From the NCBI GenBank assembly GCA_003345595.1, contig PRDI01000049.1:29780-93779 (forward strand): a stretch of 64,000 nt of DNA, written 5' to 3'. Source of the DNA: Candidatus Thorarchaeota archaeon (GTDB lineage Archaea > Asgardarchaeota > Thorarchaeia > Thorarchaeales > Thorarchaeaceae). The notes under the pieces are model-generated. The model ran no database searches. It saw only the letters and a list, made by a program, of their open reading frames with translations, and was not told the DNA's origin. Shown piece after piece: positions 1,170 through 47,519 of the stretch (within the stretch, counting starts at the first letter, position 1; the number at the start of each line of letters is the position of its first letter). The position numbers and the translations under genes are program-made.

Positions 1170-1569
1170 AGACAGACTTCACGACCGCGCCGCACTGGCG
1201 AATCATCACTAATCTAGGAATCCCAATTCCAAGCACCTTGTGTCAGTGTCTGTGATTTGAACTCCCCCGCGACTTTCGTAGTGTCGGACATTGGTGTTCC
1301 GTTTCGAGCGTCGTAACTGATTGGAGTGACTGTTACATTGGTCACGTGAACAGAGCGAAGGTGTTCATTTGCGGTGGTTCTAGGAGGTTAAAAGACACGC
1401 TCCAGTAACGAAAAAGCAGTGGATTGGATGAGAAATAGAGCCGTTTCCGAACAGGACATTGCCAGTTCAAGCGGCGGGCCATTGATGTCAATCCGATATG
1501 TCAAAGGCAAGCCCCTGACTAAATCTGGACCACGGGGGCAAGATGACGGATTCTCCTGAGGCATGTTCA

Positions 1570-3534
1570 ATGAGGAATGTGCCTGTTCTTATTGGAGCCG
1601 CAATTGCCCTGATGCTCTTTATGTTTGCGGCTTGCACAGAAACAGTATCTGCAGAAGAAACGCCTATCTGTCGGGGCAGTGTCGCAACTATCACTATTAC
1701 CTTGCTCCAGAACGGCACATATGGAAACCCGGTTTCTAATCAGCCTGTGGAGTTCTTCGATCAGACCCTTGATGTGTTCTTGGGCTTGGTCCTGACTGAT
1801 GTGGACGGCCGCGCTCAGTTCGAATGGTCCCTACCAGCAGACCATCCCCTTGGGCCGACCGTGATCAATGCCACCTACCGTGGCAACGAAACTCTGGCAC
1901 TCGCTCCGTCTTTCCAATGGACATCACTTACTGTACTCTCCTCCACGAGAATGGATATTCAAGTTGAACGAAGCACTGTGTTTCCCGGGGAAGTAGTACC
2001 ATTCACAGTCCTGCTCTTGAACGACATGAATCTTCCACTGCCGTACGCACAACTCACTGTGTTTTGTAACAGCGTGCCAATCACATCGAGGGCTACAAAC
2101 TCATCTGGCTGGGCCCGGTTCACTGTTCAGTGCAATGACTCATGGGCTCGTTTGGGAGAGAATGAAATCCGGGTTGCCTATGAACAAAACCTAGTAGTCT
2201 TCAATGAGGCGGTAGCAGAGTCATTCATGGTAACGGTCGAGCAAGTTTCCACAAGTGTCGAAGTGACAAAACCTCCTCTGGGGTCGTACGGACTGAACGA
2301 CACTCTACGTACAGACTTGTTTCTGAGAGCCGACGATGGAGCACTGCCCGGGGCCAGACTTCAAGTTGCTTTGGACGGCGTTTCTCTTGCTGCTGTCTTG
2401 ACTGATGACTCTGGTGTGGCACATCTATGTCTAGTAATAGACGGCATATTCACTCTAGGCCCTCATAGGTTAACTTTCGAGTATCCGGGGAATTCTCGAT
2501 ATGCATCATGTTCACATGATATTTCCATTAGCGTCCTAAGCAGTGCAAACATTCGAATCATTCTTCAAGGACCCGTCATTGTCAACACAGACAGCAACAT
2601 CACTATTGAGATCAGGGATCTGTTCCACCGTCCGATACAGAATGCTACCATCATTCTGCGTGACCTAGTTAGCAATGAAACATTCGCCGGTGCAGTCCCT
2701 ATTGGCACGACCTCTGTGAGTTTCAGTTTCCATATTGTAGGAAGAACCGGAGCCAGAAGCTTCCTCATCAGCATTGTTGGGAACGAGTATGTCACGAACA
2801 GGACCAGTGCATTCAGCACTCTTGTCTGGTCTCGTCCTGACTTAATACTGGTCAGAAGCAACATCAGAGGGTATGCTTCCCCCAGTCAGCAGATAATGCT
2901 CGAAGTCAGGCTGTACGACTCCCAGATGGCCTATACTGACACACTTGTGGAATCCTGGATTGACAATACGACAGCTGTTTCCCATTCATTCACGAATAGC
3001 TCTGGCTTCGCGATTGTTGAACTCAAAGCGCCACAGGATGAAGGTCTGGTCGATACATGGATTGTCTACAGCGGCAATCTGACTGTTTTTAGAATGTCTA
3101 ATACCTTACACTACACTTTCACTGTCAGCAGGATAGTCCCGCTGGCGATTGAACTGCACCACTACACAGTAATCATGCCCCTGCTACAGCTCGAGGTTGT
3201 CTTGATGGCCTGCGCTCTCAATGGATCCTTGCTAGAGGGGGTGACAATAAACTATGAATGGCTCTCCATTCGAGGAAGCACAGAGAGTACGCATGATGGC
3301 TTGTCCCAACTGTACCTGCCAGTACCCGGGTTTCCGGGTTCGTTCATTCTCTCTTATTGGACCGAATCCTCCTCGTACACACTCTCATGTAGTGGGCACT
3401 TCGTCATCAATCTAAATGGAAGTGAAGTTGCAGCAGCTCAAGGTGTCGGCATCACTGGCATGGCAGCAAGCATATGTGTTTCTCTAACATTGGCCGCAAT
3501 ACCAATCATCAGAAAGAGGTACCTACTGGACTAG
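1570..3534 (+). CDS. Secreted/surface protein with repeated Ig-like beta-sandwich domains and a C-terminal membrane anchor
   Basis: Signal-peptide-like N-terminus (MRNVPVLIGAAIALMLFMF); recurring TDxxGxA and 'YxGN' motifs; many NxS/T sequons; C-terminal hydrophobic helix followed by RKR. Confidence 0.75.
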   Translation: MRNVPVLIGAAIALMLFMFAACTETVSAEETPICRGSVATITITLLQNGTYGNPVSNQPVEFFDQTLDVFLGLVLTDVDGRAQFEWSLPADHPLGPTVINATYRGNETLALAPSFQWTSLTVLSSTRMDIQVERSTVFPGEVVPFTVLLLNDMNLPLPYAQLTVFCNSVPITSRATNSSGWARFTVQCNDSWARLGENEIRVAYEQNLVVFNEAVAESFMVTVEQVSTSVEVTKPPLGSYGLNDTLRTDLFLRADDGALPGARLQVALDGVSLAAVLTDDSGVAHLCLVIDGIFTLGPHRLTFEYPGNSRYASCSHDISISVLSSANIRIILQGPVIVNTDSNITIEIRDLFHRPIQNATIILRDLVSNETFAGAVPIGTTSVSFSFHIVGRTGARSFLISIVGNEYVTNRTSAFSTLVWSRPDLILVRSNIRGYASPSQQIMLEVRLYDSQMAYTDTLVESWIDNTTAVSHSFTNSSGFAIVELKAPQDEGLVDTWIVYSGNLTVFRMSNTLHYTFTVSRIVPLAIELHHYTVIMPLLQLEVVLMACALNGSLLEGVTINYEWLSIRGSTESTHDGLSQLYLPVPGFPGSFILSYWTESSSYTLSCSGHFVINLNGSEVAAAQGVGITGMAASICVSLTLAAIPIIRKRYLLD

Positions 3535-3542
3535 AATCCCAA

Positions 3543-3652
3543 TGGTGCTCCGGCCGGGATTTGAACCCGGGTCTGGGGATCGAGAGTCCCCAATGCTGGG
3601 CCGGACTACACTCGGCCGCACAACGAATCTCACTCGGTGCGACTACCGGAGC
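3543..3652 (-). tRNA. tRNA-Glu(CTC) with a 32-nt intron at 10/11 (intron 3611-3642)
   Basis: Acceptor GCTCCGG/CCGGAGC-ACCA; anticodon arm GGGGA-CTCTCGA-TCCCC; T arm CCGGG-TTCAAAT-CCCGG. Removing 32 nt restores the D-stem GTGT/GCAT (78-nt mature tRNA). Confidence 0.93.
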
Positions 3653-3912
3653 TTGGGCTGTGCCAGCCCGGAGCGGGCATTCACCCTCTACGCAGCAAAT
3701 AAGGCTTTCTCTGTAAAGTCACGATATTTCCAATCTGAATCGGATGTTGGCCTGGAACTCTGGTCTGTCACTCTGCGAATCATCGATAGCATTGGTGTCG
3801 GAGCACTGCCCACATCTCCAATGCGTTTCACCCTAGCTTGTTTACTTTCCAAGAAAACCGATTGTATTCAAACATTCAAGCTGTTTCGACCTGCTTACTG
3901 CAACTGGGCGGA

Positions 3913-4280: not shown

Positions 4281-6041
4281 TTAGCCCCGATACAGAAACG
4301 GATGACCATTCTTCCATAGCCTCTCCCCCATGAACATGGTAATGTCCATTTCAGACCCGCCAATCTCGTTTTCAAGTTCATGAAGTAGCCTCTCGTAGGC
4401 GGGCACATGACTTTGAATCCCTTGTTCCCGGGAATGAAGCATGAATGCTCCATCCTCAGCCCACTTCGGGATTCCAGACTTAGCCGGCTGATTCGATAAG
4501 ACTACGTTCAGCCCGGCGAATCTCAGCAGGCCATCGACAACCTGTCTTCTCACTTCAACAACCTCTTTGACTCGTCGTGTGGCATTTCCAGGTGTGGGCC
4601 GCTCCATAGTGATTATGAGGTCTATGAGTGCGACACTCGATTTATCAATGCCATGATCTGATGTCCAGCGAGAAATGAGACTCGATGCAGAATCACTGTG
4701 ACAGGTCTGTATTGTATGAAGACCCGCCGCAATTGCCTGAAACAAAGCACGGCTGTGTTCTGCTGTCTGAATCTCTCCAAGAATCAGATAATCAGGTGAC
4801 CTGTGAAGGCTTTTTACGATCTCCTTGCTCTTGTCGAATCCGGGCTCGTTCTCGTCAACTGGATCGACCCTGATTCTTACTTGGTGACACCCTTTGATAG
4901 ACCTACTTTCGACGGCATCTTCGATGTAGACTCTTCTCCAGCTTCGCGGCGTAGTCATATCAAGAGCATTCAGCAGAGTAGTCTTCCCGGATCCCGGACC
5001 ACCTGTTATCGTAATGTTGAACCTAGCAGACACGGCAAGCAACAGTATCGCCGCAGCCTCCATACTGAGCGTGCCATTGCGAACCAAGTCCGTTATCGAA
5101 TATGGGCTCCTACGGGCCCTACGCATCTCAAGATGTAGTCCGTCTGGGCTCAAGGGTGGCAGGCTCAGAGAGAATCTCAGAACTGCATCACAGACCAACA
5201 TCTCTGTCTTGAGCGATGGGTTTCTCCGATCGAGATGGAAATTGCTCTCGGCCCTCACGAGCGTGACGATACGATCAACATCATGCTCATTGACGGTCGT
5301 TGTTGAACAACACCTTCCGAAACGTCGATGGTCAAAGTAAATCTGACTCTCGGGCCGGTCTAGGTAAACCTCCTCGACTTCGTCATCGAGCAGAATTGGA
5401 AGGAAGCATCTGAGGGCTGTTGATCGATGTGCTACGATTTCTGCGATTCTAGTCCTAGTGATAATGCCTACCTCTGGCAGTGAGTGCGAGATCTTCGCTG
5501 CAACAGATTCAGAGATTCGCCTGAGTCTTATGTTGATGTTTTCTCTGGACAAATGCGGTGCATCATCGAACAGACTCCTGTCGGCACTCAATTCATTCAG
5601 CAATGCCATCTCTAGACGAGTCTTAACTAGCGGGACCGTTTCAAGAAGCAGACCTGAACTGGAGCCATCTTCACGGAAGACTGACAGGTAAGGCCCAACA
5701 AGATATGCTTCAGATAACAGATGAACCGTGTCAAAGAAACGCTGGTCCTCAACGTAGACCGATTCCCAACCCTCCGCATGCCATGGCGGTCCGTTGAGCG
5801 GTTTTCCATCATGTCTTCCAAGATGAATCAGGCCCTTCCCAGGTTCGACTACTAGAATCTTAGTCTTTTGCCCGTCATCAGAACTCGTCAAGGCTAACCG
5901 TTTACATGGCCCCTGCTCTGCATATTCACACTCTGTGCACCCTGTCTTGGGGCATAGGATAACATTGACCAAGTGTTCTATCACACCAATCGGACTCCAC
6001 AGCATCAGATGCGGGCCGGATTCACAAGCCAGAAGCTGCAA
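4281..6041 (-). CDS. Type II/IV secretion system ATPase (CpaF/TadA/VirB11/FlaI family)
   Basis: Walker A GGPGSGKTT, Asp box YIEDAVE, Walker B ILGEIQ, His box QTCHSDS, upstream motif 'LDDEVEEVY'. Confidence 0.9.
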   Translation of the reverse strand: MQLLACESGPHLMLWSPIGVIEHLVNVILCPKTGCTECEYAEQGPCKRLALTSSDDGQKTKILVVEPGKGLIHLGRHDGKPLNGPPWHAEGWESVYVEDQRFFDTVHLLSEAYLVGPYLSVFREDGSSSGLLLETVPLVKTRLEMALLNELSADRSLFDDAPHLSRENINIRLRRISESVAAKISHSLPEVGIITRTRIAEIVAHRSTALRCFLPILLDDEVEEVYLDRPESQIYFDHRRFGRCCSTTTVNEHDVDRIVTLVRAESNFHLDRRNPSLKTEMLVCDAVLRFSLSLPPLSPDGLHLEMRRARRSPYSITDLVRNGTLSMEAAAILLLAVSARFNITITGGPGSGKTTLLNALDMTTPRSWRRVYIEDAVESRSIKGCHQVRIRVDPVDENEPGFDKSKEIVKSLHRSPDYLILGEIQTAEHSRALFQAIAAGLHTIQTCHSDSASSLISRWTSDHGIDKSSVALIDLIITMERPTPGNATRRVKEVVEVRRQVVDGLLRFAGLNVVLSNQPAKSGIPKWAEDGAFMLHSREQGIQSHVPAYERLLHELENEIGGSEMDITMFMGERLWKNGHPFLYRG

Positions 6042-11575: not shown

Positions 11576-11682
11576 GCGGCCATGGTCTAGTATGGTCTAG
11601 GACGGAAGCCTCCCAAGCTTCCAACCCGAGACGGTTTCGCTGACCGCGAACTGCGGGAGTTCAAATCCCGGTGGCCGCACCA
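11576..11682 (+). tRNA. tRNA-Gly(CCC) with a 29-nt intron at 53/54 (intron 11631-11659)
   Basis: Acceptor GCGGCCA/TGGCCGC-ACCA; anticodon arm GAAGC-CTCCCAA-GCTTC; BHB central helix CCCG/CGGG with bulges AGA and AGT. Confidence 0.92.
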
Positions 11683-24448: not shown

Positions 24449-24818
24449 GAAAGCAATCGCAAATATCTTCGCTGATCTTTCTTACGCTATAGTTGAAGAT
24501 GAAACGTACTTCGAGGTGCAGTCCTCTCTCAATCGAGTTGGCTCTCTTGACTGGCTTCGACAAAGAATCCATGAGCTCAAGATAATCGATGCTGTGCGTT
24601 CACGATTGCTGTCCAACTGGAGTGGAAGTTCAACATGGTTGTGCCTTGATAAGCAGGCCGCTTTCTCAGGAAGGGTCAGAATCGCTGACGACTCTGAAGA
24701 ATCTCCACCGCTTGGATTCATAGAGATTGTATTGCAGTTTGATACAGAGCCAGAGTTCCAGAGATTCCTGACTTGGTTTGTTCCGCGTACTGCAGACGGA
24801 CACGTTATTGAGGGCTAG
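24393..24818 (+). CDS. UPF0201/DUF54 putative RNA-binding protein
   Basis: VYPTEDRERVEKAIANIF, KQAAFSG, SPPLG; usual partner of the upstream kinase. Confidence 0.85.
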   Translation: MQAVVRSRVYPTEDRERVEKAIANIFADLSYAIVEDETYFEVQSSLNRVGSLDWLRQRIHELKIIDAVRSRLLSNWSGSSTWLCLDKQAAFSGRVRIADDSEESPPLGFIEIVLQFDTEPEFQRFLTWFVPRTADGHVIEG

Positions 24819-25840
24819 AATCTCAGCACAAATACTTCGCGTGTCAACCCGCTATGCACAGGTACCGGTAGTCGAAGCTCTGGGGTGAAACCGCAGTCAG
24901 TCATCAATTGCAGAACGTTCATTTCAGCACTTCCACAAAGACACACACTTCCTCCTTTCGACAGTAATCCACTGGCTTGTTGCAGGAGTGAACTGACCAG
25001 TTTTGTTGCCTCTGCTCCACGGGTCGAGCTGGACCTGCCATATGGAGGATCTGTCACAACACAATGGCATCCTCGTACTGGGATTGAATGGGCATCACCG
25101 TGAATGAGAGAATAGTCGGCATCACCAATACTCATCAGATTGATGCGCGCCCCCGTCAACAATCGCCAGCTGAGATCAAGTCCAATCGCTTTGGCTCCGA
25201 TATGCGAAACCTCGCACAGTATTCCACCTGCTCCGCAGAATGGGTCAAGTACAATGTGATCTGGCATAACACCCGCAAGATTGCACATTACTCTTGCCAA
25301 GAACGAGTTCATCATAGAGGGGTGAAAGAAAGGCATCGATCCCGGGCTTCTTCTCCTCAGCTGACTGCGCAGTCTAGACTGGTTTGATTCACACATCAAG
25401 ACCCGCTGTGGCTCTAGAACAAGCAATATGCTCACAACAGGATTCTTCACGGCAACCTTGGCTCCGGTTGATGTCCTAATTGACTCTCCAAGTAATCGAA
25501 TGGCTGATTCTCTGCTTCTCGTTTCTTCGACCCCAGTGAGGTTCAACACTCTGATGTAGAAGCTGTCCCCCGGTTTAATCCAAGCTCGAATCTGATCCCA
25601 GCAATCGTCTTGCATCATGTCTTCGAAGCTGCTAGACTCAAATACGACGGCACCCGCTTCTTTAGTTAGCGCCGCTCTCTCCAGTATGAATGAAGAAGGG
25701 TCTGGATGGCAACGAACGAGGGCCAACGGTCCAGACCAATTCATGCTTGCTTCAATGCCCGATGCGCGGATAAGAGCTTGGACTTCAGCTTGGGCCAGAG
25801 TGACATTCTCGCCAGATACCAACACGAAGTATCTGTTCAA
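24815..25840 (-). CDS. THUMP-domain tRNA (guanine-10-N2) methyltransferase (Trm11/TrmG10)
   Basis: PFFHPSMM, LARVMCNL, DPFCGAGG, TDPPYGRS. Confidence 0.85.
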   Translation of the reverse strand: MNRYFVLVSGENVTLAQAEVQALIRASGIEASMNWSGPLALVRCHPDPSSFILERAALTKEAGAVVFESSSFEDMMQDDCWDQIRAWIKPGDSFYIRVLNLTGVEETRSRESAIRLLGESIRTSTGAKVAVKNPVVSILLVLEPQRVLMCESNQSRLRSQLRRRSPGSMPFFHPSMMNSFLARVMCNLAGVMPDHIVLDPFCGAGGILCEVSHIGAKAIGLDLSWRLLTGARINLMSIGDADYSLIHGDAHSIPVRGCHCVVTDPPYGRSSSTRGAEATKLVSSLLQQASGLLSKGGSVCLCGSAEMNVLQLMTDCGFTPELRLPVPVHSGLTREVFVLRF

Positions 25841-47397: not shown

Positions 47398-47519
47398 GCG
47401 GAGGTTGCCAAGCCAGGCCAACGGCGCAGGGCTTAGGATCCTGTCACGTAGGTGTACCCGGGCTGCTTCTTTGTCAACCTGAGACCGAATCGCGAGTTCA
47501 AATCTCGCCCTCCGCACCA
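47398..47519 (+). tRNA. tRNA-Leu(TAG) with a ~34-nt intron at the 3' base of the variable arm (47456-47489)
   Basis: Acceptor GCGGAGG/CCTCCGC-ACCA; anticodon arm CAGGG-CTTAGGA-TCCTG. Excision gives a normal Leu variable arm T-CAC-GTAG-GTG-TTC (88-nt mature). Confidence 0.9.

What the first reader, a model, noticed from the sequence alone, without database searches (positions are those of the whole stretch)
3543..3652. tRNA-Glu intron at position 10/11, in the 5' strand of the D-stem
Seen: a 32-nt insert whose ends are ambiguous (AGT repeated), so 8/9 to 11/12 are all possible by sequence. The 10/11 register gives a proper BHB: central helix C5G6G7U8/GCCG, bulges AGU and AGU, intron stem CGCAC/GUGCG. 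The helix borrows acceptor-stem bases, so the precursor cannot be a cloverleaf until spliced. Known: archaeal non-canonical introns are mostly in the D-loop, anticodon arm, variable and T regions. Inference: 10/11 is very rare or unreported, and splicing must precede G10 methylation by the Trm11 encoded at 24815-25840.
Basis: partly seen in the sequence, partly recalled or inferred. Interest (0 to 1): 0.8.

Follow-up and report, generated by a model that had tools for sequence, protein, structure and literature searches.

The report
Thorarchaeal tRNA-Glu intron at 10/11
The only tRNA-Glu(CUC) gene of this Asgard (Thorarchaeota) genome carries a real 32-base intron at the unusual position 10/11. 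It is conserved across most genera of the family, and a conserved upstream copy of the tRNA's 5' end may help the precursor fold so the intron can be cut out.

Summary
**Verdict: real intron at 10/11, relaxed splicing motif, family-wide in Thorarchaeota.**

- **Gene.** Window 3652-3543 (minus strand) encodes tRNA-Glu(CUC). It consists of a 10-nt exon 1, a 32-nt insert and a 68-nt exon 2 that includes CCA. ARAGORN and Rfam both mis-call it.
- **Distribution.** The same insert site occurs in 66 of 85 sampled genomes of the family (13 of 16 genera). It occurs in none of 314 genomes from 32 other families of the phylum. Four intronless orthologues read GCTCCGGTAG|TGTAG, which fixes the mature junction.
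- **Register.** In 38 of 67 distinct introns only 10/11 gives that mature sequence.
- **Splicing motif.** The central helix C5-U8 / RCCG is kept in every copy. The intron stem shows compensatory changes at all five pairs. The outer helix is a single pair, so the motif is a relaxed HBh' type, not a strict bulge-helix-bulge (BHB).
- **Leader motif.** GCUCCGGRCUGG sits at the predicted transcription start. It repeats the 5' acceptor strand and weakens or disappears where the intron is absent. Folding models suggest it pairs with the 3' acceptor strand and frees exon 1 for the splicing helix. This is a hypothesis only.
- **Prior sightings.** First readers of this scan noted the same intron in other genomes.
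- **Status.** New member of a known kind. No RNA evidence is available.

The parts
3696..3709 (-). Archaeal promoter (BRE/TATA), GAAAGCCTTATTTG
   Evidence: It is conserved as GAAAGSCTTATTTG in 73 related loci. It lies about 21 nt upstream of the leader motif. [quoted passage not shown] The start site was inferred from spacing and was not measured.
3663..3674 (-). Conserved 5' leader motif GCUCCGGGCUGG (family consensus GCUCCGGRCUGG) at the predicted transcription start. The first 7 nt repeat the tRNA's 5' acceptor strand.
   Evidence: The motif is exact in 53 of 69 intron-bearing loci. All 7 intronless tRNA-Glu(CUC) loci have at least 2 mismatches. Among 17 detectable tRNA genes of the genome, only this one has a second upstream copy of its 5' acceptor strand. 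The partition-function probability of pairing with the 3' acceptor strand is 0.96. No compensatory changes are available to prove the pairing.
3653..3662 (-). Variable spacer of the leader (10 nt here, about 8-16 nt in the aligned relatives)
   Evidence: Its sequence and length are not conserved across relatives.
3643..3652 (-). Exon 1, tRNA positions 1-10 (GCUCCGGUAG). C5-U8 (3648-3645) form the 5' strand of the central splicing helix.
   Evidence: The helix is 4/4 paired in all 67 distinct introns.
3611..3642 (-). 32-nt intron. Nt 1 (U) completes the 5' bulge. Nt 2-6 pair with nt 22-26 to form stem h' (3641-3637 with 3621-3617). Nt 27-30 GCCG (3616-3613) form the 3' strand of the central helix. 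Nt 31-32 AG plus U11 form the 3' bulge.
   Evidence: All five h' pairs show compensatory changes. The insert is absent from intronless orthologues L009, L015, L017 and L023.
3543..3610 (-). Exon 2, tRNA positions 11-76, with anticodon CUC and an encoded CCA
   Evidence: The Rfam tRNA model matches positions 9-63. The stretch is 91-97% identical to the best-matching tRNA-Glu locus in most genomes of the same family.

Best explanation
This is the functional, single-copy tRNA-Glu(CUC) gene of a Thorarchaeota (Asgard) genome. An endonuclease-type intron lies between G10 and U11, one base into the 5' strand of the D-stem.

**Splicing motif.** In the precursor, exon bases C5-G6-G7-U8 leave the acceptor stem and pair with intron bases RCCG to form the 4-bp central helix. 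A9-G10 plus intron nt 1 form the 5' bulge. The last two intron bases plus U11 form the 3' bulge. A covarying intron hairpin (h') closes the motif. The outer helix is vestigial (C4-G12), so the motif is a relaxed HBh' type.

**Processing (inferred).** The genome's (alpha-beta)2 EndA is closest to the Aeropyrum pernix enzyme and includes its specificity-loop region. It would cut after the second base of each bulge. RtcB would join the exons. The cloverleaf would then form, and RNase P would remove a leader of about 22 nt. Modification of G10 (Trm11) would follow.

**Leader (hypothesis).** A conserved motif, GCUCCGGRCUGG, sits at the predicted transcript start. It is proposed to pair with the 3' acceptor strand CCGGAGC, and its CUGG with CCAG of the D-arm. 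That would hold the body in a pseudo-cloverleaf while exon 1 and the intron present the splicing motif. It would also favour splicing before 5' maturation.

**Shown:** gene structure, conservation, register, covariation of h', and presence of the enzymes. **Inferred:** actual splicing, order of steps, transcription start, and the role of the leader.

The confidence of 0.85 applies to the intron being real and spliced at 10/11. The leader role alone is at about 0.4-0.45.
For: **Intron**
- The sequence and a perfect acceptor stem appear after removing 32 nt.
- Intronless orthologues in two genera read GCTCCGGTAGTGTAG.
- The site is occupied in 66 of 85 family genomes (13 of 16 genera) and in 0 of 314 genomes of other families.
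- Only register 10/11 fits in 38 of 67 distinct introns, and all 67 admit it.
- The splice geometry equals that of canonical 37/38 introns in the same genome.
- The central helix is 100% paired, with U8 facing A or G. All five h' pairs have changes on both sides. In 500 shuffles none reached the observed covariation score.
- It is the sole tRNA-Glu(CUC) in the assembly. GAG makes up 61% of Glu codons.

**Machinery**
- There are two EndA genes. By inspection of the translations one has the catalytic Tyr/His/Lys and the other lacks the His.
- The alpha subunit matches A. pernix 3P1Z_B at E 4.5e-49, aligned without gaps through the specificity-loop region.
- Asgard (alpha-beta)2 EndA with the L1 loop is published (PMC5829648).
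- RtcB and RNase P RNA are present.

**Leader**
- The motif is conserved between variable flanks, at the distance from the TATA box expected for a transcription start.
- Mean probability of the central helix is 0.10 without the leader and 0.74 with it. It is 0.41-0.44 with a shuffled or reversed motif.
- For the window itself, the cost of the splicing conformer falls from +5.5 kcal/mol over the MFE without the leader to +0.7 over the acceptor-stem fold (+2.8 over the MFE) with it.
- The motif is degraded or absent in all intronless lineages and in the neighbouring family.
Against: - No RNA data exist. Splicing, cut sites and the transcription start are all predicted.
- The outer helix is 1 bp, so the 3' splice site is not enclosed as in a strict BHB.
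- In the window's own genus the 2D model gives the central helix a probability of about 0.02. Exon 1 can instead pair with an intron-internal ACCGAGU, and the intron's GGCCG can pair with the D-loop.
- The leader pairing has no compensatory changes because its partners are invariant.
- Shuffled motifs still raise the helix probability to 0.41.
- RNAalifold prefers pairing RCUGG with exon 1 C4-U8, which would compete with the splicing helix.
- After in-silico splicing the 2D model still favours the leader over the true 5' strand (0.75 against 0.02). The proposed strand exchange therefore needs tertiary structure or RNase P to drive it.
- Intronless genera g4 and g16 keep a 7-nt complementary leader. 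The motif may therefore have a function independent of the intron.
Confidence: 0.85

Rival explanations
1. The intron is real and spliced as described, but the leader motif plays no part in splicing. It could be a promoter-proximal or initiator element, a protein-binding site, or a remnant of a partial duplication of the gene's 5' end.
For: No covariation supports the leader pairing. Intronless genera g4 and g16 still carry a recognisable motif. The 2D model cannot explain release of the leader after splicing. Shuffled motifs give about half of the predicted effect.
Against: - The motif is exact in 53 of 69 intron-bearing loci and altered in every intronless one.
- It is missing in the neighbouring family, whose tRNA-Glu(CUC) has a short leader.
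- It is perfectly complementary to the 3' acceptor strand.
- The changes seen at its 4th position (C to U) keep pairing, as G-U; changes at its 6th and 7th positions do not.
- No other detectable tRNA gene of the genome has such a repeat.
Confidence: 0.45
2. There are two introns. The upstream GCUCCGG would be the true 5' exon, and the stretch from RCUGG through the second GCUCCGG would be a second intron at 7/8. The mature sequence would be the same.
For: A direct repeat of GCUCCGG lies at the predicted transcript start, so the product would be identical.
Against: - With the splice geometry validated, the required central helix would pair CUCC with CUCC, which cannot form.
- Intronless lineages with degraded or absent motifs (GCUUCGGACUCG, or none) still have an intact proximal tRNA 5' end.
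- RNase P RNA is present to remove a leader.
Confidence: 0.03
3. The insert is not removed. The locus would be a pseudogene, or a tRNA with a permanent extra arm, and GAG would be read by tRNA-Glu(UUC).
For: No expression data exist. Standard tRNA finders score the locus poorly. A tRNA-Glu(UUC) gene is present at G000 C75:62771.
Against: - The insert is conserved across 13 genera with both exons nearly invariant.
- The splicing-type central helix is always kept and the stem covaries.
- It is the only CUC copy, while GAG is the majority Glu codon.
- The promoter is conserved.
Confidence: 0.03
4. The intron is spliced in another register (8/9, 9/10 or 11/12). In this copy that yields the same mature tRNA.
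For: The AG/U repeats at both ends of the window's intron make all four registers equivalent in product.
Against: - The bulge-helix geometry places the cuts at 10/11.
- In 38 of 67 relatives only 10/11 restores the conserved G10-U11 sequence seen in intronless orthologues.
Confidence: 0.05

Closest known systems
Archaeal non-canonical tRNA introns with relaxed BHB (HBh') motifs, cut by (alpha-beta)2 EndA (Crenarchaeota/Thermoproteales; Marck & Grosjean 2003; reviews PMC4090602, PMC3239211)
   Same: It is a short protein-spliced intron of 26-36 nt. It has a 4-bp central helix, 3-nt bulges with cuts after the second bulge base, and an intron hairpin h'. The host has a two-subunit EndA with the specificity-loop region.
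   Different: The position is 10/11, which is not in the list of positions given in PMC4090602. The 5' strand of the central helix is made of acceptor-stem bases 5-7 plus U8, so splicing and the cloverleaf are mutually exclusive. The intron is fixed across a whole Asgard family in one isoacceptor.
Intron at position 3/4 in the acceptor stem of some Thermoproteales tRNAs (Sugahara et al. 2008, as cited in PMC4090602)
   Same: The intron lies very close to the 5' end, so its splicing motif must compete with acceptor-stem pairing.
   Different: The phylum and position differ. No conserved leader repeat of the acceptor strand is described for those cases in the texts I could read.
Unannotated D-arm intervening sequences of Asgard tRNA genes (bioRxiv 10.64898/2026.10.13.758758)
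   Same: It is an Asgard tRNA gene with a D-arm insert that standard annotation mis-handles and that sits at a BHB-like boundary.
   Different: The preprint focuses on Freyr-, Jordi- and Atabeyarchaeaceae. Its main text mentions neither Thorarchaeia, tRNA-Glu nor this position. Its per-intron tables were not readable here.
Leader/trailer complementarity in split and permuted archaeal tRNAs and in rRNA processing stems (PMC3218864, PMC4090602)
   Same: Sequences outside the mature RNA pair to build the structure that EndA needs. An unusually distant promoter flags the extra leader.
   Different: Here the leader is proposed to replace the 5' acceptor strand in cis, not to form the BHB itself. 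The leader would then be removed by RNase P rather than by EndA. This remains a hypothesis.

Membership tests
Archaeal endonuclease-spliced (BHB-type) tRNA intron | A 4-bp central helix flanked by two 3-nt bulges on opposite strands, with splice sites after the second bulge base | tested here: met
   C5-U8 pairs with intron nt 27-30, and both bulges read AGU. The geometry was calibrated on canonical introns of the same genome. The helix is 4/4 paired in 67 of 67 distinct relatives. About 40 of those came from a pattern that required CCG. All 26 intron loci found by BLAST also have it.
Archaeal endonuclease-spliced (BHB-type) tRNA intron | An intron-internal helix h' next to the 5' bulge, kept by compensatory change | tested here: met
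   The window has CGCAC/GUGCG. All five pairs show changes on both sides, and 83% of cells are paired. With ungapped end-anchoring of all 67 introns, 64% of cells pair, against 44% when partners are shuffled.
Strict hBHBh' motif (the substrate of alpha4 / alpha'2 EndA) | An outer exon-exon helix h of at least 2 bp enclosing the 3' bulge | tested here: not met
   Only C4-G12 can pair, and U3/U13 and C2/A14 do not. The motif is therefore filed as relaxed HBh'.
Archaeal endonuclease-spliced (BHB-type) tRNA intron | Removal yields a canonical tRNA, and intron-free orthologues exist | tested here: met
   Removal gives a 7/7 acceptor stem. Intronless orthologues L009, L015, L017, L023, L139 and L141 read GCYCCGGTAGTGTAG.
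Archaeal endonuclease-spliced (BHB-type) tRNA intron | The host encodes a splicing endonuclease able to cut relaxed motifs, plus an RNA ligase | tested here: met
   There are two EndA genes with PF01974 and PF02778 domains. The alpha subunit matches A. pernix 3P1Z_B at E 4.5e-49 through the loop region. RtcB scores 561 bits.
Archaeal endonuclease-spliced (BHB-type) tRNA intron | The intron is excised and the exons are ligated in vivo or in vitro | not testable with these tools
   No transcriptome or enzyme assay is available.
Group I / group II self-splicing intron | A ribozyme core of hundreds of nucleotides | tested here: not met
   The insert is 32 nt. No Rfam intron family matches the region even at E up to 10.
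Archaeal Trm11 (tRNA m2G10/m2,2G10 methyltransferase), for the ORF at 24815-25840 | Full-length similarity to characterised aTrm11 | tested here: inconclusive
   The best solved relatives are tRNA (guanine10-N2)-dimethyltransferases: 6zxw/6zxv at E 5e-26 and 5e71 at E 9e-21. TIGR01177 scores 214 bits, below its 316-bit cut-off, and PF01170 is present. Activity and substrate were not tested.

The most novel reading that the evidence does not exclude
The pre-tRNA carries its own folding device. A leader at the transcript's 5' end copies the acceptor 5' strand (GCUCCGG) and adds a surrogate D-stem strand (CUGG). It occupies the 3' acceptor strand and the CCAG of the D-arm and holds the body in a pseudo-cloverleaf. 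The real 5' strand is then free to form the splicing helix with the intron. This would enforce splicing before RNase P cleavage and would let an intron persist at a position that is otherwise incompatible with tRNA folding. The leader and intron would have co-evolved in Thorarchaeaceae, and the motif decays once the intron is lost.
Probability: 0.4. Interest if true: 0.7.

Novelty: new member of a known kind. Interest (0 to 1): 0.5.

Why it matters
- **Annotation.** Standard tRNA finders mis-call the only tRNA for the most used Glu codon in this genome. Asgard tRNA sets will look incomplete until such D-stem introns are modelled.
- **Mechanism.** An intron whose splicing helix must be built from acceptor-stem bases raises a direct question. 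How does the precursor avoid the very stable cloverleaf long enough to be cut, and in what order do EndA, RNase P and Trm11 act?
- **A testable handle.** The conserved leader repeat gives a concrete experiment using transcripts with and without the leader plus the two EndA subunits.
- **Evolution.** The family-wide presence with a few losses gives a dated example of gain, fixation and loss of a tRNA intron in the closest archaeal relatives of eukaryotes.

Tried and rejected
- **ARAGORN's 75-nt gene (3547-3621).** Rejected. Its 5' strand is intron sequence with 5/7 pairs, whereas the split gene has 7/7.
- **Intron RCCG pairing with the D-loop CGGC instead of exon 1.** This is what the MFE of the window shows. 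It fits only when R is G, and R is A in 49 of 67 relatives, which pairs with U8 but not with C.
- **Leader as a second exon (intron at 7/8).** No splicing helix is possible.
- **Leader CCGGACU pairing with the D-loop AGUCCGG.** This 7-nt complementarity was noticed by eye. It was not scored separately, and the folding models instead favoured other partners for the leader.
- **Leader RCUGG pairing with exon 1 C4-U8.** RNAalifold proposed it, but its mean probability is 0.08 in single-sequence partition functions. It is kept as an unresolved competitor.
- **2D energies as an explanation for leader release after splicing.** They do not explain it.
- **Literature search for '10/11'.** The search tools cannot handle the slash.
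- **Papers not held.** Marck & Grosjean 2003, Tocchini-Valentini 2011 and Sugahara 2008.
- **Preprint supplements.** Not held.
- tRNAscan-SE and SPLITS.

Full report
**1. What is in the sequence**

On the minus strand, window 3652-3543 reads as follows:
- exon 1, GCUCCGGUAG (3652-3643);
- a 32-nt insert, UCGCACCGAGUGAGAUUCGUUGUGCGGCCGAG (3642-3611);
- exon 2, UGUAGUCCGGCCCAGCAUU-GGGGA-CUCUCGA-UCCCC-AGAC-CCGGG-UUCAAAU-CCCGG-CCGGAGC-A-CCA (3610-3543).

Without the insert this is a standard archaeal tRNA-Glu(CUC) with a 7/7 acceptor stem.

The standard tools mis-handle the locus. ARAGORN calls a 75-nt gene at 3547-3621 whose 5' strand is intron sequence. Rfam's tRNA model matches only positions 9-63 at 32 bits.

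- central helix C5-G6-G7-U8 with intron nt 27-30 (GCCG);
- bulges A9-G10-U(intron 1) and A31-G32-U11;
- intron stem CGCAC/GUGCG.

I checked the splice geometry on canonical 37/38 introns of the same genome. The central helix is formed by the four exon bases before the last two and the four intron bases before the last two. The cuts fall after the second base of each 3-nt bulge. The Glu insert fits that geometry only at 10/11.

**2. Organism and distribution**

A pattern scan of named genome records shows the source is a Thorarchaeota (Asgard) MAG. Almost all true hits are Thorarchaeota, or records labelled uncultured archaeon, Hermodarchaeota or Promethearchaeota. The bacterial hits lack the tRNA body and are chance matches.

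The assembly has 129 contigs, 2.73 Mb and 52% GC, and is 83% complete.

Across 400 genomes of the phylum the site is occupied as follows:

| Group | Genomes with the intron |
|---|---|
| Window's family | 66 of 85 (13 of 16 genera) |
| 32 other families | 0 of 314 |

The orthologous gene is intronless in genera g4 and g16, in two g11 genomes and in one g8 genome (G025). It is also intronless in the neighbouring family of the same order. All of these read GCYCCGGTAG|TGTAGTCC. These copies give the mature junction directly.

**3. Register and structure**

The window's own intron is ambiguous from 8/9 to 11/12. The two bases before the 3' splice site vary among relatives (AT, AG, AA, TA, TG, AC, TT, CC). 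The first intron base is mostly A. As a result, only 10/11 restores the conserved G10-U11 in 38 of 67 distinct introns, and 10/11 is allowed in all 67.

The central helix is paired in every copy. U8 faces A in 49 copies and G in 18. G7 faces C or U.

On an 18-sequence alignment covering 13 genera:
- all five h' pairs carry changes on both sides;
- 47 cells have double changes, against 14.8 expected;
- no shuffle out of 500 reaches the observed covariation score.

The outer helix h is only C4-G12. By the Marck-Grosjean nomenclature, as described in PMC3239211 and PMC4090602, this is a relaxed HBh' motif and not a strict hBHBh'.

**4. Is it needed, and can it be spliced?**

It is the only tRNA-Glu(CUC) in the assembly. 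The only related genes are Glu(UUC) on C75 and Asp on C52. GAG makes up 61% of Glu codons in long open frames.

The genome has two EndA genes:
- a 188-aa catalytic subunit, 170 bits to the A. pernix alpha subunit 3P1Z_B, aligned without gaps through the specificity-loop region;
- a 241-aa paralogue that lacks the catalytic His by inspection.

This agrees with the published statement that Asgard archaea have (alpha-beta)2 EndA with the L1 loop, the class that cuts relaxed motifs (PMC5829648). RtcB and RNase P RNA are also present.

**5. The folding problem and the leader**

The central helix uses three acceptor-stem bases. Without flanks, the model gives that helix a mean probability of 0.10 and acceptor pairs 5-7 a mean probability of 0.89.

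The region upstream of the gene is laid out as follows:
- a conserved promoter, GAAAGSCTTATTTG;
- about 21-25 variable bases;
- a conserved GCUCCGGRCUGG (window 3674-3663);
- a variable 8-16-nt spacer;
- the tRNA.

Other tRNA genes of the genome have their TATA-like element at about -38 to -31 and no such motif. Among the 17 detectable tRNA genes, only this one has a second upstream copy of its 5' acceptor strand. By spacing, transcription should start at or within a few bases of the motif. This was not measured.

Partition-function results with and without the leader:

| Quantity | Value |
|---|---|
| Leader nt 1-7 paired with 3' acceptor strand | 0.96 |
| Leader CUGG paired with D-arm CCAG | 0.59 |
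| Central helix, native leader | 0.74 |
| Central helix, no leader | 0.10 |
| Central helix, motif shuffled | 0.41 |
| Central helix, motif reversed | 0.44 |

For the window itself, the splicing conformer costs +5.5 kcal/mol over the MFE without the leader. With the leader it lies +0.7 over the acceptor-stem fold and +2.8 over the MFE.

The motif is exact in 53 of 69 intron-bearing loci. It has at least 2 mismatches in all 7 intronless loci. It is absent in one g11 genome and in the neighbouring family.

I read this as a surrogate acceptor/D-stem strand that frees exon 1 for the splicing helix.

**6. Weaknesses of the leader idea**

- No compensatory changes are possible because the partners are invariant.
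- RNAalifold prefers pairing RCUGG with exon 1 C4-U8.
- The window's genus has an intron-internal ACCGAGU that traps exon 1 in the 2D model, giving a central-helix probability of about 0.02.
- After in-silico splicing the 2D model still prefers the leader to the true 5' strand, 0.75 against 0.02. Strand exchange would need tertiary contacts or RNase P to pull it.
- Two intronless genera keep a complementary 7-mer.

I put the leader role at about 0.4-0.45. The intron itself is at about 0.9 or higher.

**7. Comparison with what is known**

Archaeal introns at non-canonical positions are well known. One review lists 20/21, 22/23, 25/26, 29/30, 30/31, 45/46, 53/54, 56/57 and 59/60, plus 3/4 (PMC4090602). 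10/11 is not in that list.

I could not read the full catalogues. A 2026 preprint reports that tRNAscan-SE misses about 30% of Asgard intervening sequences, mostly in the D-arm. Its main text does not mention Thorarchaeia, tRNA-Glu or this position.

First readers of this scan noted the same intron in at least four other genomes. One of them (e1-5518087) also saw the duplicated GCTCCGG. I had noticed that repeat independently.

The intron is therefore a new, or at least poorly documented, member of a known kind. The leader-coupled precursor would be a new variant if confirmed.

**8. Trm11**

The ORF at 24815-25840 (minus strand) is a Trm11 homologue. G10 and U11 are 32 nt apart in the precursor and the D-stem cannot form there. 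Methylation after splicing is therefore plausible, but it was not tested.

Noticed in passing
window 11576-11679 (+): A tRNA with anticodon loop CUCCCAA (Gly-CCC) carries about 29 extra bases in the T-loop. This is a non-canonical T-loop intron. Rfam finds the gene at 37 bits and ARAGORN misses it.
   Followed up: partly
window 47398-47516 (+) and 47609-47704 (+): Two adjacent intron-bearing tRNA genes, Leu-UAG and Ser-CGA. For Leu, ARAGORN places a 38-nt intron at the canonical site, while the Rfam alignment puts a 44-nt insert after the anticodon stem. The true intron position is unresolved.
   Followed up: no
G000 whole genome: Only 23 tRNA matches (21 above the gathering score) and 22 ARAGORN calls were found in an assembly that is 83% complete. 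Many tRNA genes are probably hidden by non-canonical introns. This matches published remarks on Asgard genomes (PMC5829648; bioRxiv 10.64898/2026.10.13.758758).
   Followed up: partly
G000 C106:12486-12593 (+): ARAGORN labels an intron-bearing tRNA as tRNA-Pyl(CUA). This is most likely an artefact of a misplaced intron or anticodon.
   Followed up: no
window 3632-3638 and 3610-3616 (-): In the window's genus the intron holds a second copy (ACCGAGU, intron nt 5-11) of the 3' splice-site sequence (GCCGAG|U). In 2D predictions it pairs with exon 1 GCUC(C)GGU and competes with the splicing helix. In relatives these bases form an inner intron stem that shows compensatory changes (CGAGU/AUUCG against UGAGU/ACUCA).
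   Followed up: partly
G366 (same family, genus g6): C49, C189, C236: One genome bin carries three different intron-bearing tRNA-Glu(CUC) copies. It is either a mixed bin or has true paralogues.
   Followed up: no
window 1543-3534 (+) and 4281-6041 (-): The tRNA sits between a 663-aa Ig-like-domain surface protein and a 586-aa T2SSE/VirB11-type secretion ATPase. Earlier notes of this scan describe a pilus- or DNA-transfer-like locus here.
   Followed up: no
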